Source of the DNA: Eledone cirrhosa
Taxonomy: Eukaryota
Direction of reading: 5' to 3'
Assembly: GCA_964016885.1 (NCBI GenBank)
Contig: OZ024742.1
Coordinates: 158,968,001-159,032,000 of the forward strand
DNA length: 64,000 nucleotides
The notes under the pieces were generated by a model. That model was not told the DNA's origin. It did not search any database and worked only from the letters and a program-made list of their open reading frames with translations. Every line of letters starts with the position of its first letter. The first letter of the stretch is position 1. The position numbers and the translations under genes are program-made. Of the stretch, positions 2,392-38,407 are shown piece after piece.

Positions 2392-2495
2392 CAATAATAA
2401 TAACGACAACAACAATAATAATATACATTTACATATATATATACACATACACGCACACACATAAGCATATCTATACACACACACACACACACACG
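1830..2495. repeat. Compound microsatellite (TA)n/(TACA)n/(CA)n/(TAA)n between the two RTE copies
   Basis: Visible directly; explains the low-complexity ORFs at 1691-2502. Confidence 0.95.
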
Positions 2496-2502
2496 ATAGC
2501 AA

Positions 2503-4640
2503 CTAACAGCGCTGCGATCGAATGAGGCTTTTTAGCCCAGCCAATGATCTAAAATGTCTTGCACAGAGTCGGCAACCAAAACATTCACTGGGAATAGCCG
2601 GCTGTGGTTGGAGTTCATGTACTTTTGCATGTCGCTTGAGCCCTCCTGCTGATTTACAATCTCTACCACATGTTTGGCAAGCAGTATGAGTAGCATCTCC
2701 AACAGCAGCCTGGTAGTCAACCACTGGTCTTACTTTATGACTGCGAAGATGACTTTCGAGTCCAGCTTTGCTTAGGCAGAGTCTCGCACAGACGCTGCAT
2801 GTCAGCACCATAGGAGGACCCTCGCCGTCTGGAAGTGCAACAGCAATGCCCTTCCTCACATCCCGCTTTACTTTCTCGTATGCGATTCGAGATGCCTCAA
2901 AGGCAACTTTTCCCTCATATACAGTCTTTCTCCATTTATTACGATCAGCAGCAATATTTTCCCATGTATCAGCAGAGATGTTAGCGTCTTTCAGAGAGGC
3001 TTTCAAGGAATCCTTATGCCTCTTTTTTGGTTTATGTAGCGGTCGTCTTCCTTTAACCAACTCTCCATAAAAGAGTTGTTTTGATATTCTAGAATCCTTC
3101 ATCCTGGCAAGGTGACCACTCCAACGGAGTCGTTGCTTAAGCACAAGAGCTTCTATACTGTCACACATAGAGCTTCCCAAAATATCGACATCACTGATGT
3201 GGTCCCTCCAGTGAACGCCATGGATCCGTCTGAGACACATCTGATGGAAACGCTCCAATGGCTTAAGGTGGTGTCGATATGTGACCCAGGTCTCACAGGC
3301 ATAAAGAAGACAAGGGAGCACACATGCCCTGTACACCTTTACATTTGTCCTCCTGCATATGTCTCGCCGACCCCAGAGTCGCCTTTCTAGCTTTCCGAAA
3401 GCATCACTTGCTTTCCTAATCCTAAGTGAGATTTCACTGTCAAGGTTGCTGTATCGATTGACAGTGCTTCCCAGGTAGACAAACTGATCAACCACTCCAA
3501 GTCGTTTGCCATACACATAGATGTTTGGTTCAGTGTACTGCTTACCAGGGGCAGGTTGGTACATGACGACGGTTTTCTTGAGATTGACAGTCAAACCTAG
3601 GGCAGTGCAAGTGTCAGAAAATGCATTCAAAATGTGCTGCATATCACTCTCTGTGTGCGCTACAAGATCGCAATCATCTGCATACAAGAGGTCTCTTATG
3701 ATTGATGTAAATACTTTTGTCTTCGCAGCAAAGCGCCTGATGTTAAATATGCTGCCTGAGGTTCGATATCGGATGTAAACACCATGCTCGCAATTCCTGA
3801 ATGCAATACAGAAAACCATTGCAAAGTATATGGCAAACAGGGTCGGTGCTGGAATATCCCCCTGTTTCACTCCATTTTTTACTGAGATAGGCTCCGACAT
3901 GTTACCTCCGACATTAACCCAAGCCTTCATGTCGTCATGGAAAGACCTAACTAAAGCAAGGAACTTATCAGGGCAACCAAGTTTCTGGAGAACCTTCCAT
4001 AATGCATCTCTGTTAACAGTATCGAAAGCTTTTGTCAGATCGACAAAAACCTGATACAGATCCAAGCCTTGTTCCATGCACTTCTCCTGGAGCTGTCTAG
4101 CTGAGGAGATCATATCAGTAGTGCCACGTCCAGCACAAAAACCAGATTGACTTTCAGGAAGAACACAATCTGCAATGTGTGTCAGCAGACGGTCCAGAAG
4201 CACCCTACATAAAACTTTCCCTACGACAGAAAGCAATGATATACCTCTGTAGTTCCCACAATCATTCCTGTTACCCTTTCCTTTGTACAAGACCACTATT
4301 ACTGCATCTCTCCAGTCCTCAGGTACGGATTCATTAGTCCATATCCTGCCAAACAAAGAGTGAAGATGTTGCAGGAGTCTCTCACCACCATATTGTAGGA
4401 GCTCTACATGTATGCCATCCATACCTGGAGATCTTCCACTGTTCAGCTTCGAAATAGTCACTGCAACCTCCACAAGCGTCGGAGGTTCTGCGTGAGCTAC
4501 TTTCACAGGACTTTCTGGAATGAGATTGAGGAAATCTTCACTGACGACAGACGGCTGATTCAAAAGATCATCAAAGTGCTCTCGCCACCTTCGTAGAATT
4601 CCTTGTGAGTCACGAAGATGTTCTTTGCCATCCTTGCTGC
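2503..4640 (-). CDS. Reverse transcriptase of the RTE LINE with three C-terminal C2H2-type zinc-finger repeats
   Basis: SPGMDGI, NYRGISLL, FVDLTKAFD, GVKQG, LLYADD, FVYLGS, RLRWSGH. C-terminus has CSVC..HLRSH, CQTC..HAKVH and a degenerate CRLC..LIRSQ. Confidence 0.93.
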
Positions 4641-4945
4641 GAATCAAACGCAGTTTGTATCTCACCAGCCTTTTCACTCCACCACTGATCCTTCATCTGA
4701 GAAAGACTCCGCCTAACACGTGATTTTACATCCCTGAGTTCCTCATGCAATGTATTCCTCTCCTGTGGTTTTGCCGTCAAGTAGCGTGACAGAGCACGCC
4801 TCTTATCAGCCAACAAGTCTTCTATATGTACATTATTCTCATTAAACCAGTCCTGATGTTTTCTCTGCACCAATCCAAGAACACGCCTGCCTACATCATA
4901 AACCGACTTTTTAAGGGTCGGCCAATCCTCACCAAGATCTGCAAC

Positions 4946-5970
4946 CTACATCTCTTCTTCCAATGTCTTCTTCACATTTTTATCCTTAAGACGAGCAGCA
5001 TTCAATCTTTTGGGCAGGGCAACACCAGGAGCCCGGATTTTACGTTTAGTGATTAGTTTCACTTTTGCGCGTACCAGGCGGTGGTCCGTCCAGCACTCAG
5101 CTCCACGAAGAACACAAACACACTGCACATCCTGTCTGTCACGCATCCTGACTAGGACGTAGTCCAAAAGATGCCATTCCTTAGATGCAGGATGCATCCA
5201 TGTGGTCTTGAATTTGTTCTTTTGTTGGAACATGGTGTTGGTAACACACAGATCCAGCTCCTCACACATCTGCAGCAGGAGCATACCATTGTTGTTACAC
5301 TTTCCCACCCCATGCCTTCCGATTACATTCCACGTGTTAAAATCCCTACCCACTCTAGCATTAAAGTCACCAAGCACGATGACTTTGTCTGCATGAGGGA
5401 TATTTCTTAAAACACCTTTCAAGGCATGGTAAAAGGACACTTTTTCTTCATCGACAGAATTCATAGTTGGAGCATACACACTCACCAGGGTAGCATATCT
5501 TCCTTTGTCCAGCGGAACTCTCATGGACATAAGGCGCTCACTAATCCCTACTGGGAATTCTTCTAATTTATTCACAAGTACAGTCTTAACAGCAAATCCT
5601 ACCCCAGCCTCTCTTCTGGTTCCTTCATCTCTTCCTTTCCAGAAGAATGTATATTCTCCACAAAATTCTGTAAGATGACCATCTCCAGCTAACCTCGTCT
5701 CAGATAAAGCCACGATGTCAAGATCGTAACGTCGAAGCTCCTTTGCAACAAGAGCGGTCCTTCGTTCAGGACGCTCCAAGGAATCCCTGTCAAGCAGCGT
5801 CCGTACGTTCCAGCAGCCAAGACTAAATGCCTTGTTTGGTTCTATTACAATGGCACGATGACGAGCGGGCCCAGGCTGTGATAACCTGGGGCCCCTGCCC
5901 TTATTGCCAATGATCTTTTTTGTTCCAGAACCTATATTGCCAATTATCTCTTTTATATTGTTCTGGAACA
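4946..5970 (-). pseudogene. APE endonuclease domain of the RTE LINE
   Basis: Motifs GCWNVRTL, ALSETR, SVYAPT, GDFNARVG, LDYVL, TDHRLV. The annotated ORF start (poly-Y/poly-F) is microsatellite read-through. Confidence 0.92.
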
Positions 5971-6639
5971 TCATTGAATTGGGAAAAAAAAAAAAAAAAA
6001 AAAAGTAATAATAATAGTAATAATAATAATAATAATAATAGTACACTATTAATAATTATTAATGCACTCGTGCAATGCCTGTGCGTGATGAATATTTTTA
6101 AAGTGAGGAAAGACTGTGCACTGAGCCAATCCCACTCTCTGAGCGACAGTAGCTATAACCCGAAAAGAAGAAAAGATCAACGTCATCGGTAACTACTGAG
6201 CCGCAGGTTTTATGTCGGAGTTAACCCAGTTTCTTGAGATGCCTTCTCCTAGAAGAATGACCTGACAAGGGCTAGGGGTTCTTCACTCACAGTGGTTTAA
6301 CTGCGCGATCGGGCATCCAGCCCGATTATTTCTGTGCCCGCGCAAAAAAAAAAAAAAAAACTCACTTATTGACACTTATACGTACGACATACACACACGC
6401 GCATACATATGCGCACACACACACGCATACATACGCGCGCGCACAGCAACACTCATACATACAAACAAACACACACACGCTACTCACTTACACACACACA
6501 CACACATATATATATATATTACCGTCATTACTGATACAAGATTACAAGATTATGTCAACTGTTGACTTTCAAGAGTTTGTATAGTTGAAGCCGATCGTAT
6601 TACAGTCGAGTATTATTATAATTGCTTTACAGCATAGAG

Positions 6640-11149: not shown

Positions 11150-14912
<3,763 letters not shown>

Positions 14913-15885: not shown

Positions 15886-17431
15886 TTATTGATTTTGAGG
15901 GATGCTGTCAAATGCCTCATTGTTAAGGGAGTAGTGTGTGGAGATGTATGGTAGAGTTTTCAGTTTTGATTCATTCCTTGGTTTGGGGTGTCTAAGTTCC
16001 TGGATGTTGAGTTTTAGGGCACGTTGGAATCCATTGTTGATTAGGCATGGTGGGTAATTCCTGCTAATAAGTGTGTTCTTTAATTCTTCTAGTCGCATGT
16101 ACCATGTGTATTTATCAGATACTATTATGCAGATCCGTTTGGCTAGGTTGTAGGGAATGCTCATTTTGGTGTGTCTGGGGTGGCATGAGTTGAATGGAAG
16201 ATACTGTTTGGAGTCTGTGGGTTTATAGTATATGTTTGTTTCTATTTTGTTGTTGGTTTTCTTGATAAGGATGTCGAGGAAAGGAAGTTATTCATGACTG
16301 TATTCCATTGTAAATTGAATGTTTGTGTTGAGTCCATTTAGAAGTGTTTTAAATTCAAAAAGTCTTTCTATGCTTTCATGCCAGCGGATGAAGTAATCAT
16401 CCAGATATCTCTTCCGGTTTTTTTCTATGAGGAGGTAGAAGGGGTTTCCGTATTTATCTAGTAATTTTCGGTAGAGGGTGATTTTCAAGTATCCCATAAC
16501 GAGGTTGGCGTAAGAGGGAGCCGTTTTCGTGCACATGGCAGTCCCGGATTTCTGTCTGTAGAATTTGGCATCGAATTCGAAGTAGTTATTCTCCAAGATA
16601 AATTTGAGCCCTTCTATTACGAATTCTTTTATGATGCGGTGTGGTAGTTTATTGGGGTAATTTTTTAACCAGAATTGGATTGCCTCTATTCCTAGGTTGT
16701 GTGGGATATTGGAATAAAGGTTGACTACATCAAAAGACACTAGTAGGGTATGTTCATTATTAAGTGTTTTGGGGAGGTGGTTGAGCATATCGAGGTCATC
16801 CCTTATGTAGGTTTTAATGTGTTTCAGGAATGGTTTTAACAGAATATCTAGGAAATTGCTGAGGCAGTGGGTTTCACAAGTGGGACCTGCTATTATAGGT
16901 CTTAATTTGAGGTCGTTGGGTGAGGGGACATTGATGAATATGTCTGTAGCTTCTTTGCATGCTTTACTTATTTTTTCGCTTTTGTGTATCTTAGGGATAC
17001 TGTATAAAAGGCTGGGTTTGCTTTTGAAGTCAGTGATATAGTTGTATTCCTTGTCGGCAAGTCCTTCTCTGTTGGCTGTAGTGTTGAGCATGTTCGTAGT
17101 ATGTTTCGTCTTCTAAATAATATTTTGTCTCCATAAGGGCAACCGCACTACCTTTATCCGCCTCTTTGATTTTTATAGTTTTATCATTCTTTAATCTGTT
17201 CAGCTCATCCCATTCTTTTTTGTTGAGGTTTGGCCTGTGTTTATGTCTGTGTAGGTGTTGATATGGGTAATTTGTAATGTATTCGCAGAATTGGTCAAGG
17301 AAGTTGTTCTTACCTTTTGATGGGGTGTAGTTGATTCTATTTCTAGCTAGTGAGTCGTCCTCATTGTACTTGTCGTGTTGTTCCTCGCTAAGTCTTAGTT
17401 TTCTACATAATTCCGTAATGTTCCCCTTCAT
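15886..17431 (-). pseudogene. Penelope-type reverse transcriptase, frameshifted
   Basis: IKEADKG, IPKIHK, LRPII, SFDVVNLYSNIP, GTAMCTKTAPSYANL, RYLDD; thumb region SIPYNLAKRICII, SRNYP. Confidence 0.92.
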
Positions 17432-20350: not shown

Positions 20351-20869
<519 letters not shown>

Positions 20870-21255: not shown

Positions 21256-21280
21256 AGAGAGAGAGAATAGATAGATAGAT

Positions 21281-21540
21281 ATATTTCTTTATTTACCATA
21301 AAGGCATAAAAAGAAGGGACAAATACAAAGGGGGAGTTTACATACAATCGAGTAAAAAGGGTATAAAATGAAAATAATCGAAAATAACCTCAAAAGGGAG
21401 GGGACGTGATGGGGGTTGCACACACCCCTGAAAAAGTGTGCAATCCTTTGCCCGGGGAGCACATGGAGAAGGTGCTCCCCTCTCCTTTACTTCTTTACCT
21501 ACAGGATGGTATACAGAGAAGGCCCATTTACACGAGCCAT
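21281..21540 (-). mobile_element. L1/Tx1-clade element, 260-bp 3' fragment flanked by (TAGA)n
   Basis: Near-identical to 22791-23050. Confidence 0.9.
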
Positions 21541-21545
21541 TAGAA

Positions 21546-21578
<33 letters not shown>

Positions 21579-21580
<2 letters not shown>

Positions 21581-22738
21581 TGTTTCTTTATTAGCCACAG
21601 GGGCAGAAAAGAAGGGGACAAATACAAAGGGGGAATTTTACATACAATAAAAACGTGTAAAATGTTATCACAAATGCAATTTAAAAAGGTTAGTCGATTT
21701 TCCCCAATAGGGGGAGACATTACATATGGGTAACACATACCCCCGAAAAAAATGTGCAACCCTCATCTCCAGAAGTACGAAGAGTTTGTACTCCTTTCCT
21801 CTCCTCCTCCTTTTCCTCAACCTACAGGCTGATATAGAGAGAAGGCCCATTCACTCGGGCCATTCTCGCCACTTTCACCCACCTTTCATAAAACTTGCTG
21901 GGGTACAGCACCTCTCTCTCCATCCTGATTCTTCTTCCATAGTGGTATTTGAAAAAAAGAATCAGTTGTTGGCCGGAGAGAAAGGTGTCTAACCTCAGCC
22001 CTTTCAACCTTGTCCACCATACAACCTCTTTCGCCATAGCTATCACACAAAAGAAAATCGCCTCTCCTTCGTTTTTGAAGGAGGGTGGCGGTTTGATCAT
22101 GACAATGGACTCGGTGGTCAACCGGATTGGTCCCACCCGCGACAATAGTCGTTCTACATAGCCTCACAGGTCAGTAACGCCCGGGCAGTGTATGAATGCG
22201 TGCGCGACGGTTTCTTCGTCTCGCACGCACCTCGGACAGATCTTTTTTGCAGGGTCCCTTCCCGGGCGTCCATGTCTGTAGAGCTTGTCTCGAACTGGTA
22301 GAGCTCCTCGGTAGCACTGCCAGGCCAGGGACTTTTGGAAGTTGTCCATCGGTCCCGGGCGGAAGATCCTACCGAACAGACTGGCCAGTTCGTCTTCCTC
22401 TACGCCTAGAGTTTCACCGAGCGCGTCGTCACACTTGCTGCGGATCAACCCTCTATAGAATGACGAAGTGGAGTCTCCACTGAGCGCCGGGTCCGCCTGC
22501 CAGAGGGCTGTGAGCGCCTGAGCACATTCGATGTGCCAGTCGCCCATTTTCCTCGGTCTTTGCGTGACCCAGGACTGCAGCTCGGTCAGCGAGACGAGTC
22601 GTGGGAAGGCTCGCCTCACGAACGGGGCCCACACCGGATGTCCGGTGAGGAATACGTAGAGATGCCGCAGCCTGAGCGCGTGTTTGCGCATCGTCAACCA
22701 CGGCATCCCCAGCCCTCCGTTAGAAGGGTGTTGGCAGC

Positions 22739-22740
<2 letters not shown>
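21579..22740 (-). mobile_element. L1/Tx1-clade element, 5'-truncated (ORF2 C-terminus and 3' UTR)
   Basis: ORFs 22164..22706 and 21822..22145; CPRC...H...HC zinc-binding motif; (TAGA)n on both sides. Confidence 0.92.
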
Positions 22741-22791
<51 letters not shown>

Positions 22792-23008
22792 TATTTCTTT
22801 ATTTACCATAAAGGCATAAAAAGAAGGGACAAATACAAAGGGGGAGTTTACATACAATCGAGTAAAAAGGGTATAAAATGAAAATAATCAAAAACAACCT
22901 CAAAAGGGAGGGGACGTGATGGGGGTTGCACACACCCCCGAAAAAGTGTGCAATCCTTTGCCCGGGGAGCACATGGAGAAGGTGCTCCCCTCTCCTTCAC
23001 TTCTTTAC

Positions 23009-26000
23009 CTACAGGGTGGTATACAGAGAAGGCCCATTTACACGAGCCATTCTCGCCACTAACACCCACCTTACATAAAACTGCCTGTGGCCGAGCACCT
23101 CCCTCTCCATTCTTATCCTTCTTCCGAAGTGATATCGGAAGAAGTAGACCAGACTATGGCCAGAGAGGAAGTTGCCTGACCACAGACCTTTCAATCGTGT
23201 CCACCAAACAACCTCTTTCAACATGGCTATTACGCACAGAAAAACCGCCTTTGCTTCCTTTGTGAAGAGGGGAGGCGGTTTGATTGTCATCACGGACTCG
23301 GCGGTCAATCGAATCGGCGCCACCCGCGACAGCAGTCGTTCGGGGTAGCCGCACAGATCAACCACGCCCGGACATTGCACCAATGCGTGCGCAACGGTTT
23401 CTTCGTGACGCACGCATCTAGGGAAAATCTTTTTCGAGGGATCCCTGCCCGGGCGCCCGTGTCTGTAGAGCCTCTCTCAAACGGGTAGAGCCCCCCGGTA
23501 GCACTGCCAGGCTAGTGACTTCTGGAAGTTGTCCATTGGTCCCGGGCCGAAAGTCCTACCGAACAGGCTGGCCAGTTCGTCTTCTTCCATGTCCAGCGAC
23601 TCTCCAAGGGTGTCATCGCCCCTGCTAGCCACCATCCCTCTATAGAATGATGAGGTGGATTCTCCACCGATGGCCCGGCCCGGTTGCCAGAGAGCCCTGA
23701 GCGTCTGAGCACACTCAGTGTGCCAGTCGCCCAGTTTTCCGGATCTTTGCTTGACCCAGGACTGCAGCTCGGTGAGCGAGACGAGTCTCGGAAAGGCTCG
23801 TTTCACGAACGGAGCCCACACCGGTTGACCAGTGAGGAATACCTGTAGGTGCCGTAGCCTTAATGCGTGCCTACGCATCATCAACCACGGCATCCCCAGC
23901 CCTCCTTTCGAAGGTTGTTGGCAGCAGATGGATCTTCTCACCATAGGAGGGCGCTTCTTCCAAAGAAATTGGAAGAGCATGCGTTCCATGGTGGTGAGTG
24001 TTTCCTTAGGGCAATGCACGACAGTCAGGCGGTAGTAAGTGACGGACGCTATGTAAATGTTCGCCACCTCCGCCCGGCTTTTTAGGGACAGCTTACACTT
24101 GGCCCATTTCTGGGTTAGTGCAAACACCTTGTTCGTAACCTCGTCCCAGTTCTTTTCCACCTGGAGGTCCGGTCCAAACCAGAACCCAAGCAACTTCACC
24201 GGGCCCTCCGTCCAGTGTCCGACGACACCGTCGGGAGGCATCGGTCTGCCTCTCCATGTTCCGAGTTGCAGCCCGATGGATTTTTCCCGGTTCAGTTTCG
24301 CCCCTGACAACCTTTCGTAATCCTCCAGTAAGGTACCGATCGCCTCGATCTCCGAGTCGGTCGATACCATTACTGTTACGTCATCGGCGTAGGCCGACAC
24401 CGCTTTGCTCAATCCTGGTTCCAGGGGGGATACCCTGCAACAACTCCAACTTCCTCAGTAAAGGCTCGAGAGTCAATACGTACAGAAGGGAGGAGAGAGG
24501 GCACCCCTGTCGAATGGATCGTGTGATTTCGAACGGCTTCGAAATGTAGCCGTTCACCTTGATCCTAGAGCAGATGTGGTTGCTATGTAAGGCAGTGATC
24601 CAGCCTCTGAAAACAGGACCGATCCCAGCCGCCGCTAGCACCGCATCCAGGTAACCATGGTCGACCCTATCGAAGGCCTTAGACTGATCCAAGTTGATCA
24701 GGGCCCCACCGAAGCCGGGTTTGTTGCCAACCCTCTCTATGATGTATCGCATGAGGTGGAGGTTATCGTGAATGGACCTGGATGGGATAGCACATGTCTG
24801 CGCATCTCCCACCAGGCTACCCACGACAAGCGCCAACCTCTTTGCTAACACCTTGGCCAAAATCTTTAACTCTGTGTTTAGCAGGGTTATGGGCCGAAAA
24901 TTATTTATACTATCCCCCTTGTTCTCGTCCTTCCTCACCAGCGAGACTACGCCCTTGGCTACAGAACAAGGAATTCTCCCGTTCTGCTGCCAATTGCAGT
25001 AGACCGCTTCGAGGAGTTCGGAGAAGAAGACCGGCATTGCTAAATAAAGTTCGTAAGGTATACCATCGAGACCTGGAGATTTGCGTCTGCTGCATTGGCT
25101 CAGCGCAGCTCCGATCTCATCAGCCGAGATTGGTCCCTCGCAGGACTCTGCCTCTTCGCTCGAGAGACGCGGCAGGCCGTCGAGGTATGGACCGAAATCC
25201 ACGTCCCCGCCCGGACCCTCGCCTCCCCCGAACAATCGGGCAAAGTGCCTTTGAAAGGCCTCGCACATCTGCTTAGGCTCCCGGATCACCCGTCCATCCT
25301 CGGCTTGCAACGACCGGATGGTGGATCGATTTCCACTCTTAGCTTCTGTCACGCGGGCCCAGCCAACGGCTTTGGCCCCCTCATTACCTAGAGCACGTAT
25401 TTTACTTCGAATGACGCAGCCTTCGTGCTTTGCATCGAAAAACTGGTTCAAGGCCGTCCTCGATGCCAGCACTCTGGCCACATCTTCGCTCTTGATTGCC
25501 TCTTCTAATTTACCTGTTAATTCTTTCTCGTTTCTATTCCTATCGGCAGCTAACATCTTGCTATAACTTATTGATTCTGTTCTAATCTCTCTTTTGAGAG
25601 ATGCCCACCATCGGTTGTTGACGATTGCACCCGTCAACCTCTCCTTAACTAATCTGCTAATCCGGTTTCTGTAAGTCTCTTTTGCCGGTAAAGACAAATT
25701 AAGTTTCCTGTTTATGTGTTTTCTCGAGATTGACTACGCAGGTCACTAATTTGTGATCCGTATAGCCAACCGTGCGCATTTCTGGACAGCTTAATATGTC
25801 CCTATCCTTACTTCTAACTAAGAATCTATCTAAGTACGATCTAGATTGACCACTGTGGTTTCTCCAAGTCCAGGTAGGCACAGTTGGAAAATCTAGTCGA
25901 TATCTATCGACCAAGTTAAAACGGTCGAGTAACCTCTTGAGGCTGTTACACCCCCTCTATTAGGACATGCTCCTGCATAGTCCCAACGTGCATCTAGGAT

Positions 26001-26431
26001 GTCATTCCAATCCCCCGCTAGAAGCAGGGAACGCGACGTTCCCAGAAAAGTCTCCAAACGCTGGAAGAAGTCGGGCCGTTCAGCTCCGAAAGGGGAGTAG
26101 ACGGCGACCAGTCTCAAGGCCGCACCTTCACTACTGCCAACGTCTAGCACCAACAAACGACCCTCCGGGTCCGAGTGAACAACCTGTACGGCAAGACCCA
26201 GGTGTTTTTGCAGCAGTACGACAACCCCACCCCACCTCCAGGTTGACAGAGAGATGCATGCACCTCAAAGTCATCGAAGGTAGGGGCCAGCTGCCGCACG
26301 ACGCTGATCCGAGTCTCACAGATAACCATTACATTTATACCACATGACCTGAGGTCATTTAGAAGCTTTGCTTGCTTCCAAGTTGAGCCCAGGCCACGTG
26401 CATTCAAACATCCTACTCTTAACACATCCAT
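23009..26431 (-). pseudogene. ORF2 (APE, RT, C-terminal CCHC)
   Basis: CLNARGL, ICETR, AGDWN, YLDRFL, TDHKLV; SPGLDG, FRPITLLN, LDQSKAFD, IRQGCPLS, AYADD, KGGLG. Confidence 0.93.
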
Positions 26432-28220
26432 GTGGGCGGCAGAGCCAAAGGAGAGTGTAGAGACCTACCTTTCTGCTTCTCGGGGTTCGGGTTGCACGAC
26501 TTCCATGGGGTCGGGGGTGTTGAGTGAAGGGGTGTCTTGTGGTGATGTGGGGTCGTCAGTGTGTGGTGGGGTTGGGGTGTTTAGAGTTGTGTTGGGGAGG
26601 GGAAGGGAAGGGGGAAAGCTTTTTAGTAGGACGCGGTTTATGGGTTTGACAGAGGGTGGTCCTACGTCCTCCTTAAAATCCTTTTTTAGTTTTTAGTAGA
26701 GGTTCATTGGGATCCTTATTAATTTTAAATGTGGGTAGTTTTCTGAAGAAACAAAGTTTACACCTTCGGTTTGTACCGAAGGATTATTGTTTATGAGTTC
26801 ATTTAATTTATTATTGTTTCTGTTGATGTAAGTATAGTGTAATGTCTTTTTTTCGGATGGTGTGAGTGTTTCGAAGAGGGGAGGGGCAGGTTTGGTTTTG
26901 TTTGTTGCTGGAGGGGTGTTTTGTGTTTTGTTGGATTGTGTTGACATTTGGGTGGGGGTTGTTTGGCCTTGTGTGTTTTGCACATGTTTTCTTTTTTTCC
27001 TTTTAATCTGTCTGAAGGACTCCGTTTCTTCCTCCGAATTCGTTGGGTTATCTTCAGTGTTGGAGGGAAGAGGTATGTTTGCTGGTAATGTTTCCGTGTT
27101 GGTTTTCTTTGTGGGGGAGATGGATGTCACTATGTTAGACTGTGTTGTGTGTTGTGGCTGCGGTGGTTGTGTTGTTTTATTGAGTGAGGGGTTGGGTGGG
27201 CCTGTATTTTGTTTTGGGGTAATGTGTTGTGACTGTTTGTGTTGTGGTGGTGGTGTAGTTTTACTGAGGGACGGGTTGGGTGGGACTGAGTTTTGTTGTT
27301 TGTTTATCTGTTGTGGTGGTTCTGGAGCTGGTGTTGGTAGCAGGGTTTTCTTTTTGTTGAGTTGGGGACAAGCGGCCTTCAGGTGCCCTCTGCCTGCACA
27401 GATATGATAGGACGGCCTTCTCCCCTCCACGCTAATGTTTATATACCCGTGGCCCTCTAATAGGATTCTGTCGGGTATTTGGGCGATGCGTTCAGGCTTC
27501 ATTTGCACTACAAGTTCTATACCTGTTCCACTGAACGCATTGCCTGTGGTTTTCCCAATGGAAATCACGTTGTCATTCACTGGATCGATGAAGCCAGCTA
27601 TGAGCCAGCAGTAGTCCACATCTGGCATCATTGCATCCAGCCATATGCGTTGAGTTCTTTTACCATATAAGATGGATAAAAGGTAAAAATTTTCGAACGA
27701 ATCGGTGACAAAGCACATTTTTTTGCCGCCGATTCGTTTTTCATAATAATCGCTAGGCTTCCATACAGTCTGTCTTTTCTTATGAAAGTGGTTTCATTAA
27801 GTACTTCTGTAAGTACTGTTTTGATTTCTGTTTGAGTTGGCTGTTCAGGTTTTTTTTGAAATGTTGTTGATGGTACGGAAAACGACCGTTCGACTTTCAA
27901 TGTCTTTGGTGAGTTCTTGAGGCATTTTTACCGATAAAATACCATTCTCTCCTTCAGTTATATATTGTTTGGCGTCTGCAATTCTTTGTGCCACATCTGA
28001 AATATGTTCAGGTATATATGTCAAAGATTTCTTTGTTGTTTGTGCAAATGAAATATTATTGGTGTTGACTTTGTCGTCTGCTTTGCTTTCTGTTATGATG
28101 TTGTTTTCAAATGTTATTTTTGTGTTTGTTGTGCCTTTGTTTGTGGTATTAATATTGTCATGCAATTTTTCAAATTTTTTTTTTTCGTTGTTGTAATCAA
28201 TGTCCAGATTTGTGTTTTCG
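26432..28220 (-). pseudogene. ORF1 (gag-like, zinc knuckle, Pro/Thr/Gln-rich tail)
   Basis: VEGRRPSYHICAGRGHLKAAC, a CCHC knuckle with the first Cys mutated; homologous to 35886-36778. Confidence 0.8.
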
Positions 28221-28599
28221 TCATTTTTCTCCGCAGATTAGTCTGTTTTTATTTTATTTTTTCTTTCCTTCTCTATGACGTTAGTTGGGAAGGAAGGGGG
28301 GACTAAAGCGTGCGAGCTTACAACTCTTACCGCTGTCCCCCACCACTATTTTCGTTAGCTTCGTTTAACATTTCTGTCAGACGATTGAAATTTTTTATGC
28401 CACAAAATTTTTAAAAACAGGTTTTTCACCCCTAGGAGGGGTAAAGATGCGCTGACCCACCGCCTGACAGTTCAGACGGGGGGGTCAAGCTACACAATAG
28501 TATCAAAATTAAAATTGAACTTACAAAATTTCCGCAATAAATTTGAACAAAACTTCTGCGCGAAGTCAATTACATCTACGCTGTAGAACAGACGACAGC

Positions 28600-28692
<93 letters not shown>

Positions 28693-28695
<3 letters not shown>

Positions 28696-31600
28696 TTTCT
28701 TTTTATTTGCCACCAGGGCATCAAAAAGTGGGACAAGTACAATGGGGGGAGTTTACATGAAAAGGTGTCCTCAATAAGGAGAAGGCAATAACAAAGTATA
28801 AAAATAAAATAAAATATAACAAAATAAATTTTATAACAAAATCCTCAATAGGGAGGAGGCGCCGTGGGGGGTCGCACACACCCCCGAAAAAAAGTGTGCA
28901 TCCCTTCTCCTAAGGAGCACAGAGAGGGGGTGCTCCCTTGATCTTTCATCTTCCTCACCTATAGTCTGATGTAGAGTGAAGGCCCATTCACACGGGCCAT
29001 TCTCGCCACTTTCACCCATCTTTCATAAAAACGGCTGGGGTGCAGCATCTCTCTCTCCATCCTGATCCTTCTTCCGAAATGATATCGGAAGAAAGGGACC
29101 AGTTGTTGGCCAGAGAGAAAGGTGTCTGACCTCAGTCCTTTCAGACGCGTCCACCATACAACTTTCGCCATGGCTATGACGCACAGAAACACCGGCTCTC
29201 CTTCGTTTTTGAAGAGGGGAGGCGGCTTGATCGTTACAATAGACTCGGTGGTCAACCGGATCGGTCCCACCCTTGACAACAATTGTTCGACATAGCCCCA
29301 CAGATCGGCAATTCCCGAGCAGTGTACCAATGCGTGTGCAACGGTTTCCTCGTCGTACACGCATCTGGGACAGATCTTTTTCGAGGGGTCCCTACCCTGG
29401 CGCCCGTGTCTGTAGAGCCTTATTCGAACGGGCAGAGCCCCTCGGTAGCACTGCCAGGCCAGGGACCTCTGGAAGTTATCCAGGGGTCCCGGGCTGAATG
29501 TCCTACCGAACAAGTTGGCCAGTTCGTCTTCTTCCATGCCTAGGGCTTCTCCGAGGGCGTCGTCGCACCTGCTAACAACCAGCCCTCTATAGAATGACGA
29601 GGTGGATTCTCCACTGACAGCCGGGTCCGCCTGCCAGAGAGCCGTGAGCGCCTGGGCACACACGGTGTGCCAGACGCCCAGTTTTCTCGGTCTTTGCTTG
29701 ACCCAGGATTGCAGCTCGGTGAGTGAGACGAGTCTGGGAAAGACTCGCCTCACAAACGGGGCCCACACCGGTTGATCGGTGAGGAATACCTGGAGGTGCC
29801 GTAGCCTTAATGCGTGTTTACGTATCATTAACCACGGCATCCCCAGCCCTCCTTTAGAAGGGTGTTGACAGCAGATGGATCTCCTCACCATAGGAGCCCG
29901 CTTCTTCCAATGGAATTGGAAGAGTGCGCGCTCCATTTTGGCGAGCATTTCCCTTGGGCAAGGCACAACGGTCAGGCGGTAGTAGATGACGGACGCTATA
30001 TAAGTGTTCGCCACCTCCGCCCGACCTTTCGGGGATAGTTTGCACTCGGCCCACTTCTGGGTCAGTGCAAACACCCTGTTCGTTACCTCATCCCAGTTCT
30101 TCTCCACCTGGAGGTCTGGTCCGAACCAGACCCCGAGCAACTTCACCGGGCTCTCCATCCAGCGCCCGACGACGCCATTGGAGGGCATCGATCTGCCCCT
30201 CCACGTGCCGAGTTGCAGACCGATCGACTTGTCTCGGTTCAGCTTAGCCCCTGTAAACCTTTCGTACTCCTCCAGTAAGGTACCGATCGCCCCGATTTCC
30301 GAGGCCGTCGACACCATTACTGTTACGTCATTGGCGTAGGCCGACACCTCTTTGCGCAATCCCGGTTCCAACGGGATGCCCTGCAACAACTCCAACTTCC
30401 GCATCAGTGGCTCTAGCGTCATTACATACAGAGAGGGCACCCTTGTCAGATAGACCGCGCGATTTCGAACGGCTCCGAGATGTAGCCGTTCACCTTGACC
30501 CTAGAGCAGATGCGGCTGCTGTGCATGGCATTGATCCAGCCCCTGAAAACGGGTCCGAAGCCTGCCGCCGCTAGCACCGCATCCAGGTAACCATGCTCGA
30601 CCCTATCGAACGCCTTAGATTGATCCAAGTTGATCAGGGCCCCACCAAAGCCGGGTTCGTTCCCAACCCTCTCTATGATGTATCGTATGAGGTGGAGGTT
30701 GTCGTGGATGGACCTGGACGGGATAGCACATGTCTGCGCATCTCCCACCAGGTTGCCCACGACAAGCGCCAACCTCTTTGCTAGCACCTTGGCCAAAATC
30801 TGTAACTCTGTATTTAGCATAGTTATGGGCCTGAAATTATTTATATCGTCCCCCTTGTTCTTGTCCTTCCTCACTAGCGTGACTACGCCCTTGGTCACAG
30901 CACAGGGAATTCTCCCGTTCTGTTGCCAGTTGCAGTAGACCGCCTCGAGGAGTTCGGGGAACAAGTGCGGCATAGCTAGATATAGTTCGTATGGAAGACC
31001 ATCGAGACCCGGGGATTTGCGTTTGCCGCATTGGCTCAGCACGTCCTCTATCTCAGTGGCTGAAATCGGCTCCTCGCAGGACTTCGCCTCCCTGTCCGAG
31101 AGACGCGGCAGGCCGTCGAGGTATAGACCGAAGTCCACTTCCCCAACCGGCTCCCCGCCCCTTCCGAACAATCTGGCAAAGTGCTTATGAAAAGCCTCGC
31201 ACATCTGCTTAGGCTCAAGGATCACCCGTCCATCCTGGTCTCGCAAAGACCGGATAGTGGATTACTCCCTCTTTTAGCTTCTGTCACGCGGGCCCAGCAA
31301 ACAGCTTTGGACCCCTCGTTTCCCAGAGCACGTATTTTGCTTCGGACGATGCAGCCTTCGTGTTTCGCGTCGAAGAACTGGCCCAAGGCCGTTCTCGACG
31401 CTAGCACTCTGGCCACGTCGCCGCTTCTAATTGCCTCTTCTACACTATCTACCAACTCCCTTTCCTTCCTATTTCTATTTGAGGCTAACTCCTTACTAAA
31501 TTCTATAGAGGCTACTCTAATCTCTCTTTTGAGAGATCCCCACCACCTGTTGTTGACGATGGCGCCCGTCAACCGCTCCTTAACTAAAGTGCTAATCCGG

Positions 31601-31740
31601 TCCCTGTAAGCCTTACTTGCCGGTAAAGACAAGTTGAGCTTCCAGTAAACGGGTCGCTGTCTATGCGTTCTGTAAAGGTTGACCATGCAGGTCACTAACT
31701 TGTGGTCTGAATGGCCAACCATGCGCATTTTTGGACAAAT
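28693..31740 (-). mobile_element. L1/Tx1-clade element, 5'-truncated (RT to 3' UTR)
   Basis: ORFs 31222..31728, 30446..31246, 28959..30440; catalytic YADD mutated to YAND. Confidence 0.93.
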
Positions 31741-34700
31741 AAGTTTCTATTTATTTGCCACGAGGACACAAAAGAAGGGGACAAATAAAAGGGGGGATAC
31801 ATAAAGAGACGAGTAAAAAACAAATAATAAATATAAAATTAACAATACAGTCCTCAATCGGGAGGAGACGTTTTGAGAGTTACACCCCACTCCCCCGAAG
31901 AAGTGTGCAACCCTTTTCCTTAGGAGTACAGAGAGGGGGGTGCTCCTTTGCACTTCCACCTTTCCACCTACAGGCTGATAAAGAGAGAAGGCCCATTCAC
32001 ACGGGCCATTCTCGCTACTTTCACCCACCTTTCATAAAACTTGCTGGGGTAGAGCACCTCCCTCTCCATTCTGATTCTTCTCTTAAAATGGTATTTAAAG
32101 AAAAGGACCAGTTGTTGGCCGGAGAGAAAGGTGTCCGACCTCAGCCCTTTCAAACGTGTCCACCATACCACCTCTTTCACCATGGCTATTACACAGAGGA
32201 AGACCGCCTCTCCTTCAGTTTTGAAGGGAGGAGGCGGCTTGATCGTTACAATGGACTCAGTGGTCAACCGGATTGGTCCCACCCGTGACAGCAGTCGTTC
32301 GACATAGCCCCACAGATCGGCAACGCCCGAGCAGTGTACCAATTCGTGCGCAACGGTTTCCTCGTCGCGCACGCATCTGGGACAGATTTTTTTCGAGGGG
32401 TCCCTACCCGGGCGCCCGTGTTTGTAGAGCTTTTCTCGAACGGGCAGCGCCCCTCGGTAGCACTGCCAGGCCAGGGACTTCTGGAAGTTGTCCATAGGTC
32501 CCGGGCCAAATGTTCTCCTGAATAGGCTGGCCAGTTCGTCTTCCTCCATGCCTAGGGCTTGTTCGAGGGCGTCGTCGCACCTACTAACCACCAGCCCTCT
32601 ATAGAATGTCGAGGTGGAGTCTCCACCGATAGCCGGGTCCGCCTGCCAGAGAGCCTTGAGCGCCTGGGCACACACGGTGTGCCAGGCGCCCAGTTTTCTC
32701 GGTCTTTGCTTGACCCAGGACTGCAGCTCGGTGAGCGAGACGAGTCTCGGAAAGGCTCGACTCACAAACGGGGCCCACACCGGTTGACCGGTGAGGAATA
32801 CTTGGAAATGCCGTAGCCTTAATGCGTGTTTACGCATCAACAGCCACGGCAACCCCAGCCCTCCTTTCGAAGGGTGTTGACAGCAGATGGATCTCCTCAC
32901 CAAAGGAGCCCGCTTCTTCCAAAGGAATTGGAAGAGTGTGCGCTCCATTTTGGTGAGCGTTTCCCTTGGGTAAGGCACGACGGTCAGGCGGTAATAGATG
33001 ACGGACGCTATATAAGCGTTCGCCACCTCCGCCCGACCTTTCAGGGATAGTTTGCACTCAGCCCACTTCCGCGTCAGCGCAAACACTCTGTTCGATACCT
33101 CACCCCAGTCTTCTCCACCTGAAGGTCTGGCCCGAACCAGACCAACTTCACCGGGCCCTCCGTCCAACGTCCGACGACGCCGTTGGAGGCCATCGGTTTG
33201 CCCCTCCACTCGCCGAGTTGCAAACCGACTGACTTGTCCTGGTTCAGCTTAGCCTCTGTAAACGTTTCGTATTCCTCCAGTAAGGTGCCGATCACTCCGA
33301 TTTCCGAGGCGGTTGACACCATTACTGTCACGTCATCGGCGTAGGCCGACACCGCTTTCCGCAATCCCGGTTCCAAAGGGATACCCTGCAACAACTCCAA
33401 CTTCCGCAGCAGTGGCTCTAGGGCCAATACATATAGAAGGCAGGAGAGAGGGCATCCCTGTAGGATGGACCGCGTTATTTCGAACGGCTCCGAGAGGTAG
33501 CCGTTCACCTTGACCCTAGAGCAGATGCGGCTGCTGTGCATGGCAGTGATCCAGCTCCTGAAAACGGGTCCGAAACCTGACGCCACTAGCACCGCATCCA
33601 GGTAACGATGGTCGACCCTATCGAACACCTTAGATTGATCCAAGTTGATCAGGGCCCCACCAAAGCCGGGTTCGTTCCCAACCCTCTCTATGATGTATCG
33701 CATGAGATGGAGGTTGTCGTGAATGGACCTAGACGGGATGGCGCATGTCTGCGTATCTCCCACCAGGTTGCCCACGACAAGCACCAACCTCTTTGCTAAC
33801 ACCTTGGCCAAAATCTGTAACTCTGCATTTAGTAGTGTTATGGGCCTAAAATTACTTATATCGTCCCCCTTGTTCTCGTCCTTCCTCACTAGCGAGACTA
33901 CGCCCTTGGTCACAGAACAGGGATTCTCCCGTTTTGTTGCCAGTTGCAGTAGACCGCTTCGAGGAGATCGAAGAGCAAGTCCGGCATACTTAAATACAGT
34001 TCGTATGGAAGACCATCGAGGCCCGGAGATTTGCGTCTGCCGCATTGGCTCAGCACGTCCCCTATTTCAGCAGCTGAGATCGGCCTCTCACAGGACTTCG
34101 CCTCCTCGTCCGAAAGACGCGGCAGGCCGTCAAGGTATGGACCGAGGTTCACATCCCCATCCGGCCCCTCGTCCCTTCCGAACAATCGGGCAAAGTGCCT
34201 TTGAAAGGCCTCGCACATCTGCTTAGGTTCAAGGATCACCCATCCATCCTGGTCGCGCAAAGACTGGATAGTGGATCTAGTCCCACTTTTGGCTTCTGTC
34301 ACGCGGGCCCAGCTAACAGCTTTGGTCCCAGAGCACGTATTTTGCTTCGGACAACGCAGCCTTCGTGTTTCGCGTCGAAGAACTGGCCCAAGGCCATTCT
34401 CGACGCTAGCGCTCTGGCTACGTCGCCGCTTCTAATTGCCTCTTCTACACTATCTACCAACTCCCTTTCCTTCCTATTTCTATCTGAGGCTAACTCCTTA
34501 CTAACTCCTATTGAAGCTACTCTAATCTCTCTTTTGAGAGAGCCCCACCACCTGCTGTTGACGATGGCGCCCGTCAACCGCTCCTTAACTAATGTACTAA
34601 TCCGGTTCCTGTAAGCTTTACTTGCCGGTAAGGACAAGTTGAGCTTTCAGTAACCGGGTCCCTGTGTATGCGTTCTATCAAGGTTGACCATGGAGGTCAC

Positions 34701-37393
34701 TAACTTGTGGTCTGAATAGCCAACCATGAGCATTTTTGGACAACTTAACATGTCCCTATCCTTATTTCTAACTAAGAACGTATCTAGGTACGATCTATGT
34801 TGACACAGTCGGAAAATCTAGTCGATATCTATCGGCCAGGTCGAATCGGCCGATTAACCCCTTGAGGCTGTTAAACCCCCTCTATCAGGACATGCCCCTA
34901 CATAGTCCCAACGTGCATCTAGGATACCATTCCAGTCCCCCACTAAAAGCAAGGAGCGGGACGTCCCTAGAAAAGTCTCCAGACGATGGAAGAAGTCTGG
35001 CCGCGTTGACCCAAAAGGGCCGTAGACGGCGACCAGCCTAAAAGCTCCGCCTTCACCACTGCCAATGTCCAGAACCACTAGTCGACCCTCCGGGTCTAAG
35101 TGTACCGTCTGTGTAGCGAGACCCAGATGTTTTTGTAGCAGAACGACAACCCCACCTCCACCTCCGGGTTGACAGAGAGATGCGTGCATCTTAAAGTCAT
35201 CAAAGGTGGGGGCCAGCTGTCGCACGCTGCTGATCCGGGCCTCGCAAATAACCATCACATTTATACATCGTGACCTGAGGTCATTTAGAAGCATTGCTTG
35301 CTTCCAAGGTGAGCCCAGGCCACGCGCATTTAGACAACCTATTCTCAACACAGCCATGTTGGTGGTAAAGAGAAAAGGCACCTACCTCTCTGCATCCTGG
35401 GGACCGGGCCGCACAATTTCCATGGGGGTGGAGGATGGGTTGTTGGATGGAGTGGTGGTTTGTGGAAGTGTAGGGGCATCAGTGTGTGGTGGGGTTGGGG
35501 TGTTTGGAGTTGTGTGGGTGTCTGGGTGGATTTTTTAGGAGGACACGGTTAATGGGTCTGACGCAGGGGGCCCCCACGTCCTCTTTAAAAGTGTATTTTA
35601 ACGTTTTGTAAATGTCCATTGGGGCTTTTATCATTTTTAGATGGGGAAGCCCCGTTGCTTGTGCGAAATTCGAACCTTCGGTTTTTATTAAGTTGTTATT
35701 ATAAATAACGTTTAACAGTTTTTTTGTTTATTGTATTTATGTAAGTATATGCACATTTTTCTTTTTGCGTGATGTTTTTTGTTTGCTGTTGTTGTGTGTT
35801 TTTTGTGTTGATGTCTGTGTTATGTCTTGGGGGGGGGGTTGTATTTGTGTTCCTGTGGTGTGTTTTCTTTTTTTTTCTTTTAACTTTATGAAAGTGCCCC
35901 CCCCCTCCCCTCGTCTAACGACGAAAGCGGGTCGTTTTCCGTATTCGAGGGGAGGGGTTCATTTTCGGCTCGTGTTTGTGGTGTGGGTGTTATTGTATTT
36001 GTTTTCTGGGGGGGGGGGGTCAGTTGTGTTTTAACTTGTGGTGTTAGTTGTTTTTGTGGTGGTGATGTTGTTAGTGTTGTAGTTGTTGGTGTGGGCAAAA
36101 TCGGTGTTTTTTTGTTTGCTTGGGAACAGGCAGCCCTCAGGTGACCTCTGCCACCACAGAGGTAACAAGCGGGTCGTCTACCCGCCACTGTGATGAGTAA
36201 GTAGGCAAGCCCATCCAGCAATATGCGGTCGGGGATCCTAGCAATTCGTTCTGGCTGCATTTGCACCAGAACTTGCAGGTTAGTTCCACCGAACACGTTG
36301 CTGGAAGACTTACTACCGAAATTACTGCATCCTCTTTCAAGTCTAGGAGGCCACACAGTACCGCCCAGAAATCAATATCTGGATCGATACTGTGTATGGT
36401 CAATCTTTGCGTTCTTCTTCCCAAATAAGTGAGGAAGAAGGTAAATAAGGGGGACACAATTGGGGCCAGGGAATGTTTTTCGGTCGTCAATTTATCTTTC
36501 ATTCGGATGGATAGACTACCGTAGAGTCTATCCTTCCAAATGAATACAATGTTTTTCAGATGATCTTTTAACGCCAGTTCAATCTCTGTCTGTGTGAGTT
36601 GTACTGGCTTACGGGTTTTGTTTGATATTGTCCTATAAATAATAATTTTTAAGCTATTTTCCTTTTTTAGCTCTGGAGGAGAATTTAAAGAAAATAGACC
36701 ATTCTCCTCCAAAGTTATATACTTCCGTGCATTTTCCATTTGCTGGGCCATGTTCGAAATGTCAATAGGTTCGTACACAATGGTTTTTTGGTAGTTTGAG
36801 CGAACGTCATTTTGTTCGCCCCCTCTTAGTTTACATTTGTCGAAATGTAGTTGTTTTCTTGTTTTTTGTTGTTACAATTTTCATTTTTTGTTGTTTGTGT
36901 TATTTATGTTGGTGTATGCGTTCACATTTTTTTCCCCGTTGGGGTTAGACTCCATTTTTTCAAAATCTTCACTTATATTTTCAGTATCCGAGAGACTTAT
37001 AGTCACAACTACTACTTCTCTCTCACCTTTGCTGGTGGGCGTGGCACCGTGAAAAGTCGAAACGGCATCCATTAATGTTGGCGATTTCTCCGAGTCAATT
37101 TTTTTCACATTTTTTTCATTAGGGTTAGGTTCCATTTTTTCAATGTTTCTAATAATCATTATTCTTTCAGTAGGGAGGCTTGTTACCTCAGCTACCCGCT
37201 CTCCTTCAGTTTGTTTAGTGGGCGTGTCATCGTTACCTGTGGTAATGGCTTCCATTACCACTAGCGTAGAGACAATCACAAGATTTTTAGGATGAAAAAT
37301 TTCACCCCAAAAGGGGTGAAATAAATTAACCCTAATGTCCGAAGACCCAGGCAAGTGGGTTGATTAACACAATAACGTGTTAATCAACCCACT
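31741..37393 (-). mobile_element. Near full-length L1/Tx1-clade retrotransposon (ORF1 and ORF2), frameshifted
   Basis: ORF1 pieces 36881..37354, 36137..36778, 35886..36356 (CYLCGGRGHLRAAC). ORF2 pieces from 34854..35381 (APE) to 31968..33209. (GATA)n at 37398-37420. Confidence 0.93.
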
Positions 37394-37537
37394 ATCCAGA
37401 GATAGATAGATAGATAGATATACACGTGTATATATATGTGCGTGTGTGTGTGTAAAAGGTAAACAGAAATAACAACACAATCGGTACAGTATATGGAAGG
37501 AATATATTAGGTTAACGCTTGAAATAGCAGGAAGAGG

Positions 37538-37718: not shown

Positions 37719-38407
<689 letters not shown>

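What the first reader, a model, noticed from the sequence alone, without database searches (positions are those of the whole stretch)
21262..37420. Five L1/Tx1-clade elements stacked head-to-tail in a (TAGA)n/(TCTA)n microsatellite, suggesting target specificity
Seen: all five are on the minus strand. (TAGA)n runs lie at 21268-21280, 21541-21578, 22741-22790, 28600-28692 and 37398-37420. Four of the five 3' ends read AATAA-AAGAAA and then run into (TCTA)n with no long poly(A). The copies represent about four diverged subfamilies, so they are independent insertions, not one duplication. Established: Tx1-clade families include microsatellite-specific ones (Kibi for (TC)n, Koshi for (TTC)n). A (TCTA)n-specific, orientation-fixed family is not one I recognise.
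Basis: partly seen in the sequence, partly recalled or inferred. Interest (0 to 1): 0.75.

Follow-up and report, generated by a model that had tools for sequence, protein, structure and literature searches.

The report
Octopod retrotransposons landing in GATA repeats
Five copies of a jumping gene, likely from an octopus-type animal, sit head-to-tail in one TATC/GATA repeat, as do most related copies checked elsewhere in the genome, while close sister families sit in TGTC or ATT repeats; this is likely a new landing site for a known kind of repeat-seeking retrotransposon.

Summary
Confirmed. Five minus-strand L1-group (Tx1-type) retrotransposons of four subfamilies are stacked in a (TATC)n tract; only the E5/E4 junction lacks the repeat. 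Elsewhere in the genome, 106 of 124 3' ends and 32 of 46 5'-truncation junctions carry a TCTA run of 8 nt or more, against 0.43% of background windows; none has it on the opposite strand. Target-site duplications (median 19 bp) running from TATC into unique flank occur in 21 of 83 copies (mismatched pairs 0.6%), so the repeat is a pre-existing target, not a tail. A family from the same clade (endonuclease 79-88% identical) sits in (TGTC)n, and two sister families sit in (ATT)n, with weaker evidence for ATT as a target. Known relatives: Kibi (TC)n, Koshi (TTC)n, crocodilian Tx1 (TTCC/TTTC)n. Five literature searches found no TATC target; Repbase could not be checked. The scan noted this family before on other pieces of this genome and in other genomes. 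Verdict: new target variant of a known kind.

The parts
21267..21281 (+). (TAGA)n run at E1's 3' end, next to (GA)n/(TA)n; right edge of the original compound microsatellite as read on the minus strand
21282..21545 (-). E1: 5'-truncated copy, 98% identical to E3; 16-bp putative duplication with only one non-repeat position
21546..21580 (+). (TAGA)n run between E1 and E2
21581..22738 (-). E2: 5'-truncated copy, own subfamily (3' signature CA); 1,712 first-look candidates in the genome
22739..22791 (+). (TAGA)13 between E2 and E3
22792..28599 (-). E3: full-length copy, broken ORF1 and broken ORF2 (APE endonuclease-RT-CCHC, about 26431-23010); 1,099 first-look candidates for its 5' end
28600..28693 (+). 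(TAGA)23 between E3 and E4; its first 5 bases equal the ATCTA leader found on 36 of 39 E3-type copies
28694..31737 (-). E4: 5'-truncated copy (RT and C-terminal domain), own subfamily (3' signature AT/GT); 2,122 candidates
31738..37399 (-). E5: near full-length copy (3' signature CT), joined to E4 with no TATC run; broken ORFs, weak zinc-knuckle hit in ORF1
37354..37393 (.). Fold-back at E5's 5' end: about 70 nt of the family's 5' UTR is replaced by a short inverted copy
37400..37420 (+). (TAGA)5 at E5's 5' end, outer edge of the array

Best explanation
These are L1-group (likely Tx1-clade) non-LTR retrotransposons that lie in (TATC)n microsatellites in one fixed orientation and likely insert there by target-primed reverse transcription after their endonuclease nicks the GATA strand. 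Shown: domain layout, flank bias, orientation, and duplications of about 13-22 bp that start at TAT just after the element's fixed 3' end. Inferred: the nick falls at 5'-GATA^GATA-3' on the purine-rich strand, and the freed end likely pairs with a few UAUC bases at the RNA 3' end (no poly(A)). The second strand is likely cut about 19 bp away. Each insertion duplicates about five repeat units, so the target is renewed and later copies land beside earlier ones; slippage likely lengthens the spacers. Full-length RNAs likely carry a short repeat leader that can anneal upstream and hide the duplication. Sister families have shifted to (TGTC)n and probably (ATT)n, predicted to involve a few endonuclease surface residues.
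For: 3' flanks with a TCTA run of 8 nt or more: E2 25/29, E4 24/29, E5 24/29, E3 33/37; opposite strand 0/124. 5'-truncation junctions 32/46. Full-length E3 5' flanks 34/39. Background 0.43%. Informative duplications 21/83 against 39/6,806 mismatched pairs, median 19 bp. In L032 and L050 the duplication includes the first bases of an older neighbouring element. Bases on the side of the inferred nick that RNA cannot pair with are also conserved: -4 T 16/19, -3 A 16/19, -1 C 17/19, including the non-repeat sites L047 and L170. 17 of 37 full-length E3 copies have a same-strand relative within 200 bp; 1 has an opposite-strand hit downstream. An RTE-like LINE from the same window shows TCTA at 0/29 3' sides and 0/16 5' junctions. 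Among 230 distinct 3' ends no cluster mixes TCTA and ATT. The best solved-structure match is human L1 ORF2p, E 8e-49, against R2 at 6e-20. Contigs from three other coded organisms show GATA repeats at the same 3' end (X5, X6, X8).
Against: 62 of 83 copies gave no informative duplication (19 lie in pure repeat; 43 show none under a strict rule). E5-type full-length copies gave 1/12 and E5-type truncated junctions only 2/7 with a repeat. The -4 to -1 conservation is partly automatic for sites inside repeats; L040 and L181 lack it. Copies were the top 40 matches per query, not a random draw. No biochemistry was done. None of 39 E3-type or 20 E5-type copies fetched has a whole ORF2, so current activity of the TATC families is not shown. 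For the ATT families only 3/20 truncated junctions carry the repeat and 0/27 full-length copies show an informative duplication.
Confidence: 0.85

Rival explanations
1. RNA-led target choice: the endonuclease nicks purine-rich simple repeats loosely, and the repeat units read through into the RNA 3' end decide where priming succeeds, so each family inherits its target from the site its donor sits in.
For: The TGTC family's endonuclease is 88% identical to E5-type and lies in the same clade. The first 7 bases after the 3' end match the family repeat in 86-100% of copies and then decay. TGTC copies keep one TGTC unit at the junction even where the flank continues as (TC)n (L426). Human L1 priming depends on pairing of the last 4-10 nt (PMC3649969, passages).
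Against: Positions -4, -3 and -1, outside any RNA pairing, are conserved in 16-17 of 19 duplications. TGTC-specific endonuclease residues exist, two of them in the loop that alters nicking in L1 grafts (PMC1950540, passages). Tx1L endonuclease alone is sequence-specific in vitro (same paper).
Confidence: 0.2
2. The repeat is an element-encoded tail or leader, and the arrays arise because tails and heads meet.
For: A repeat leader does seem to travel with full-length copies (36/39 ATCTA; L408; L457). The RTE-like LINE in the same window has such a fixed simple-repeat tail.
Against: Truncated copies cannot carry a leader, yet 32/46 have the repeat upstream. Duplications join TATC to unique flank on both sides in 21/83. 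At (TA)n-like sites (L040, L047) no TATC is laid down.
Confidence: 0.05
3. Random insertion followed by selective retention in harmless repeats, or local tandem duplication of one insertion.
For: A 44-kb TGTC-family array of near-identical copies could have grown by unequal exchange.
Against: The window holds four subfamilies 77-89% identical with different truncation points. Strand bias is 106/124 against 0/124, and motif choice is family-specific; retention does not predict either.
Confidence: 0.03

Closest known systems
Kibi (TC)n and Koshi (TTC)n Tx1-clade elements of teleost fish (Kojima and Fujiwara 2004, seen only as cited in PMC4494074 and PMC3812793, passages)
   Same: APE-type, Tx1-like elements inserted specifically in a microsatellite
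Crocodilian Tx1 families in (TTCC)n/(TTTC)n (PMC4494074, section 15 read; supplements not available)
   Same: Tetranucleotide microsatellite preference within the Tx1 clade; several related families
   Different: Different motif. Here three motifs occur within one young lineage in one genome. Figure 3 of that paper, which lists further targets, could not be seen
Keno (U2 snRNA-specific Tx1; PMC4494074 passages)
   Same: Two metagenome elements that end in U2 snRNA (L244, L247) fall in a neighbouring RT clade
   Different: RNA-gene target rather than a microsatellite; the joining node is open (SH-aLRT 83)
Waldo (ACAY)n, Mino (AC)n and Dong (TAA)n (PMC3812793 passages)
   Same: Microsatellite-targeting non-LTR elements; Dong uses the same trinucleotide as the ATT sisters
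   Different: Other clades (R1 clade and R4 clade, recalled); convergent targeting
Octopus 'L1-Tx1' repeat class (PMC13282606, PMC8967140, PMC10294476; passages)
   Same: L1-Tx1 is reported as abundant in coleoids, with 13 recently active families in Octopus vulgaris
   Different: The passages read give no target site for these families

Membership tests
L1 group non-LTR retrotransposon | ORF2 with N-terminal APE endonuclease, RT and C-terminal CCHC motif | tested here: met
   Pfam RVT_1, Exo_endo_phos (weak) and zf-RVT (weak) in window fragments; CX2CX8HX4C visible in L036; aligned with human L1 ORF2p over residues 7-860, E 8e-49
L1 group non-LTR retrotransposon | Separate ORF1 upstream; 5'-truncated copies; no LTRs | tested here: met
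   ORF1 of 617 codons with a zinc knuckle in L036; zf-CCHC hit below cut-off in E5; many 5' truncations
Tx1 clade | RT groups with reference Tx1 elements rather than with L1-clade elements | tested here: inconclusive
   Quick ML tree only (careful search unfinished): the octopod group plus an unnamed clade (100) joins U2-inserted Keno-like elements at an open node (83); no named Tx1, Kibi or Koshi sequence was in the tree
Tx1 clade | Target preference with target-site duplication (Kojima's rule: one sequence type in more than 20% of flanks) | tested here: met
   106/124 3' flanks, 32/46 truncated 5' flanks, 21/83 informative duplications; rule from PMC4494074
Kibi/Koshi lineage | Target (TC)n or (TTC)n | tested here: not met
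   Target is (TATC)n
Kibi/Koshi lineage | Phylogenetic grouping with Kibi/Koshi | not testable with these tools
   No protein named as Kibi or Koshi was returned by two homologue searches; Repbase is not held
Sequence-specific APE endonuclease (Tx1L-EN type) | Isolated endonuclease nicks its target specifically in vitro | not testable with these tools
   Needs a nicking assay; only the loop alignment was done

The most novel reading that the evidence does not exclude
One young retrotransposon lineage has split a genome's microsatellites among its families (TATC, TGTC, ATT), and the switch is driven mainly by RNA: repeat units co-transcribed from the donor's flanks guide priming at the 3' end and joining at the 5' end, so target identity is inherited from the site of residence with little change in the endonuclease. 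That would be a self-reinforcing, RNA-programmable targeting system in an L1-type element.
Probability: 0.2. Interest if true: 0.78.

Novelty: new variant of a known kind. Interest (0 to 1): 0.52.

Why it matters
Microsatellite targeting by Tx1 elements is known, but a review passage says its mechanism is poorly understood (PMC3812793). This lineage offers close natural pairs with different targets: TATC and TGTC endonucleases are 79-88% identical and differ at 9 class-specific columns, two of them in the betaB6-betaB5 loop. That makes the open question, protein read-out versus RNA-DNA pairing, testable with a few natural domains, and it bears on engineering site-specific L1-type integration. 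For octopod genomics, thousands of copies (lower-bound candidates of 190 to 2,122 per query) renew their own target, so GATA microsatellites here often sit next to repeated element ends, which matters for marker design and assembly.

Tried and rejected
Element-encoded tail: rejected (truncated junctions and duplications). One tandem duplication of the window's array: rejected (four subfamilies). Direction of the ATT/TATC switch: not resolved; the quick RT tree nests TATC inside the ATT families, while C-terminal and N-terminal trees make ATT a sister clade (99 and 95). Order of the five insertions: mostly hidden inside pure repeat. The E5/E4 junction fits E5 inserting at the last unit beside E4 with a seamless 5' join, but an RT template jump or a later deletion fits too. 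A single loop residue as the ATT/TATC determinant: only suggestive, since E4-type TATC elements share most of the ATT loop. Metagenome scan: 55 distant relatives; of the 41 inspected none showed a TATC run of 12 nt or more, and the nearest unnamed clade (40-44% identity) has no flanks available. Sequencing-run search: no RNA holder listed, so no statement on expression. Protein atlas gave no answer. The two 'TSDs' flagged for ATT copies are neighbouring copies' 5' ends and were not counted. The 31-bp TSD (L122) is probably a mis-set junction; it is in the 21/83 count but left out of the position profile, as is L182. L042 and L057 were left out of TSD counts (3' end not parsed). Five doubtful junctions (L107, L112, L115, L156, L180) were kept in the 46. 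No structure prediction was run. Literature searches for a TATC/GATA-targeting Tx1 found none; Kojima and Fujiwara 2004, the R1Bm read-through paper, Repbase and the supplements of PMC4494074 could not be seen and may list such a family.

Full report
Observation. The five (TAGA)n runs and five minus-strand elements are present as described. E1 and E3 are 98% identical; E2, E4 and E5 are separate subfamilies at 77-89%. Fragments hit RVT_1 strongly and the APE endonuclease, zf-RVT and zinc-knuckle models weakly. A near-intact relative (L036) aligns with human L1 ORF2p from endonuclease through RT, E 8e-49, well ahead of R2. Four 3' ends run into TATC repeats with no poly(A); E5 joins E4 directly. 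The nearest named homologues are Argonauta hians proteins at 66% and 59% identity, so the host is likely an octopod (inference).

Genome-wide flanks. Each query excluded the flank and returned the 40 best of 190 to 2,122 first-look candidates; up to 30 loci per query were read, and longer stretches were fetched for 39 E3-type and 20 E5-type copies. A TCTA run of 8 nt or more lies within 40 nt of the 3' end in 25/29, 24/29, 24/29 and 33/37 copies (E2, E4, E5, E3), and on the opposite strand in 0/124. At visible 5'-truncation junctions the count is 17/23, 13/16 and 2/7. Background from 20 blind-picked 10-kb stretches is 173/39,840 windows. The window's RTE-like LINE shows 0/29 and 0/16. Same-strand neighbours within 200 bp occur for 17/37 full-length E3 copies, so stacking is common.

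Target versus tail. A strict search (12 bp or more, at most one mismatch, at least three matched non-repeat bases) found duplications in 21/83 copies against 39/6,806 mismatched pairs; median 19 bp, range 13-22 with one doubtful 31. Nineteen more lie in pure repeat, where a duplication is invisible, and 43 show none by this rule. The duplications begin at TAT two bases after the subfamily's fixed end and run into unique flank; in L032 and L050 they include the start of an older neighbour. At (TA)n-like sites (L040, L047) no TATC is added, so the repeat is not a templated tail. In 19 clean cases the bases before the duplication read T-A-n-C in 16-17 of 19; this is partly automatic inside repeats but also holds at L047 and L170.

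5' leader. 36 of 39 E3-type copies begin with ATCTA, in most cases after a few extra bases. 28 of 29 E5-type copies have TATC directly before the 5' end (by eye), and their duplications are mostly hidden (1/12 informative). That one case, L408, has a 20-bp duplication followed by an A-run and about four TCTA units before the element. I infer a co-transcribed repeat leader that can anneal upstream.

Sister families. Two blind background stretches held relatives about 70% identical that end in (ATT)n. For these, 3' flanks carry ATT in 29/29 and 26/29 and full-length 5' flanks in 13/13 and 13/13, but truncated junctions in only 2/12 and 1/8, with 0/27 informative duplications: likely targeting, less well shown. 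Among 230 distinct 3' ends in the loci then held, no cluster mixed TCTA and ATT. After an earlier scan note named a (TGTC)n family I tested it from an end already seen: 25/28 3' flanks carry TGTC and 0/28 TATC; 8/9 full-length and 2/3 truncated 5' flanks carry it; 3/9 show duplications, two of them in longer-period repeats. TGTC and TATC families form one clade (100), and the TGTC position inside it is weakly supported (74 and 77). Whether ATT is ancestral is unresolved. Whole ORF2 frames survive in several ATT-family copies and in the TGTC array, but in none of the 59 TATC copies fetched.

Endonuclease. By the alignment, the betaB6-betaB5 loop (L1 T192-S202) has the L1 length. At the position equivalent to L1 196 it holds H in E3/E5, R in E4-type and ATT families, and N in TGTC; at 197 it holds S, G or N in TATC/TGTC and I in ATT. 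Nine columns are TGTC-specific against the TATC groups, two of them in this loop. In L1, grafting this loop alters nicking, and Tx1L endonuclease is sequence-specific (PMC1950540, passages). These residues are candidates only.

Mechanism (inferred). The endonuclease nicks the GATA strand; the freed end pairs with a few read-through bases at the RNA end, as pairing aids L1 priming (PMC3649969, passages); the second strand is cut about 19 bp away; duplication renews the target and arrays grow. The main rival gives target choice to RNA pairing (0.2). Tail-only and retention models are rejected.

Relation to known systems. It works like Kibi, Koshi and the crocodilian (TTCC/TTTC)n families (PMC4494074, passages and section 15; PMC3812793, passages). 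L1-group membership is met. Tx1-clade membership is likely but rests on an open node with U2-inserted elements. It is not Kibi or Koshi by target. Papers on octopus and mollusc repeats list L1-Tx1 without a target in the passages read. Five searches found no TATC target in print; Repbase, the 2004 paper and the supplements of PMC4494074 were not visible. Contigs of three other coded organisms show GATA repeats at the same 3' end (3' side only, one or two contigs each). The scan has noted this family before on other DNA; those notes are unreviewed and are not counted as support.

Verdict. Real, well supported, a new target variant of a known kind; interest 0.52, raised by the close TATC/TGTC/ATT comparison set.

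Noticed in passing
window 2480-6055 (-), with (ATAC)n at 1923-2107 and a second endonuclease fragment at 986-1621: A LINE with APE, RT and C2H2 finger, RTE-2_OV-like by layout (PMC9115989 passages; not aligned). It has a fixed (TG)n/(TTA)n tail, and 13 of 16 visible 5' junctions carry (TATG)n against 1.6% background, so it may be a second microsatellite-targeting LINE.
   Followed up: partly
L196, L207, L295-L394: Two sister Tx1-type families flanked by (ATT)n; one is about 99% uniform with several whole ORF2 frames, suggesting recent activity.
   Followed up: yes
L445-L449 (G000:C3:358734000-358777999): Head-to-tail array with eight 3' ends of the (TGTC)n family, copies near-identical, possibly grown by unequal exchange.
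   Followed up: partly
L301, L327, L335, L337, L344, L354 downstream flanks: A recurring element with a tRNA-like look starts right after (ATT)n runs; possibly a SINE sharing the ATT target (seen, not tested).
   Followed up: no
L244, L247, L257 (metagenome contigs): Tx1-like elements ending in U2 snRNA (L244, L247) and one contig ending in U1 snRNA (L257).
   Followed up: partly
L401, L413: Loci with an E5-type 5' end whose first 3' end downstream is E4-like, suggesting mosaics or nested insertions.
   Followed up: no
window 20540-20840, 37790-38240 and 12440-12980: Short inverted-repeat elements with mirrored simple repeats; the first two look related (by eye).
   Followed up: no
window 16291-17112 (-): Another RT fragment (RVT_1, E 3.5e-05), family not determined.
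   Followed up: no
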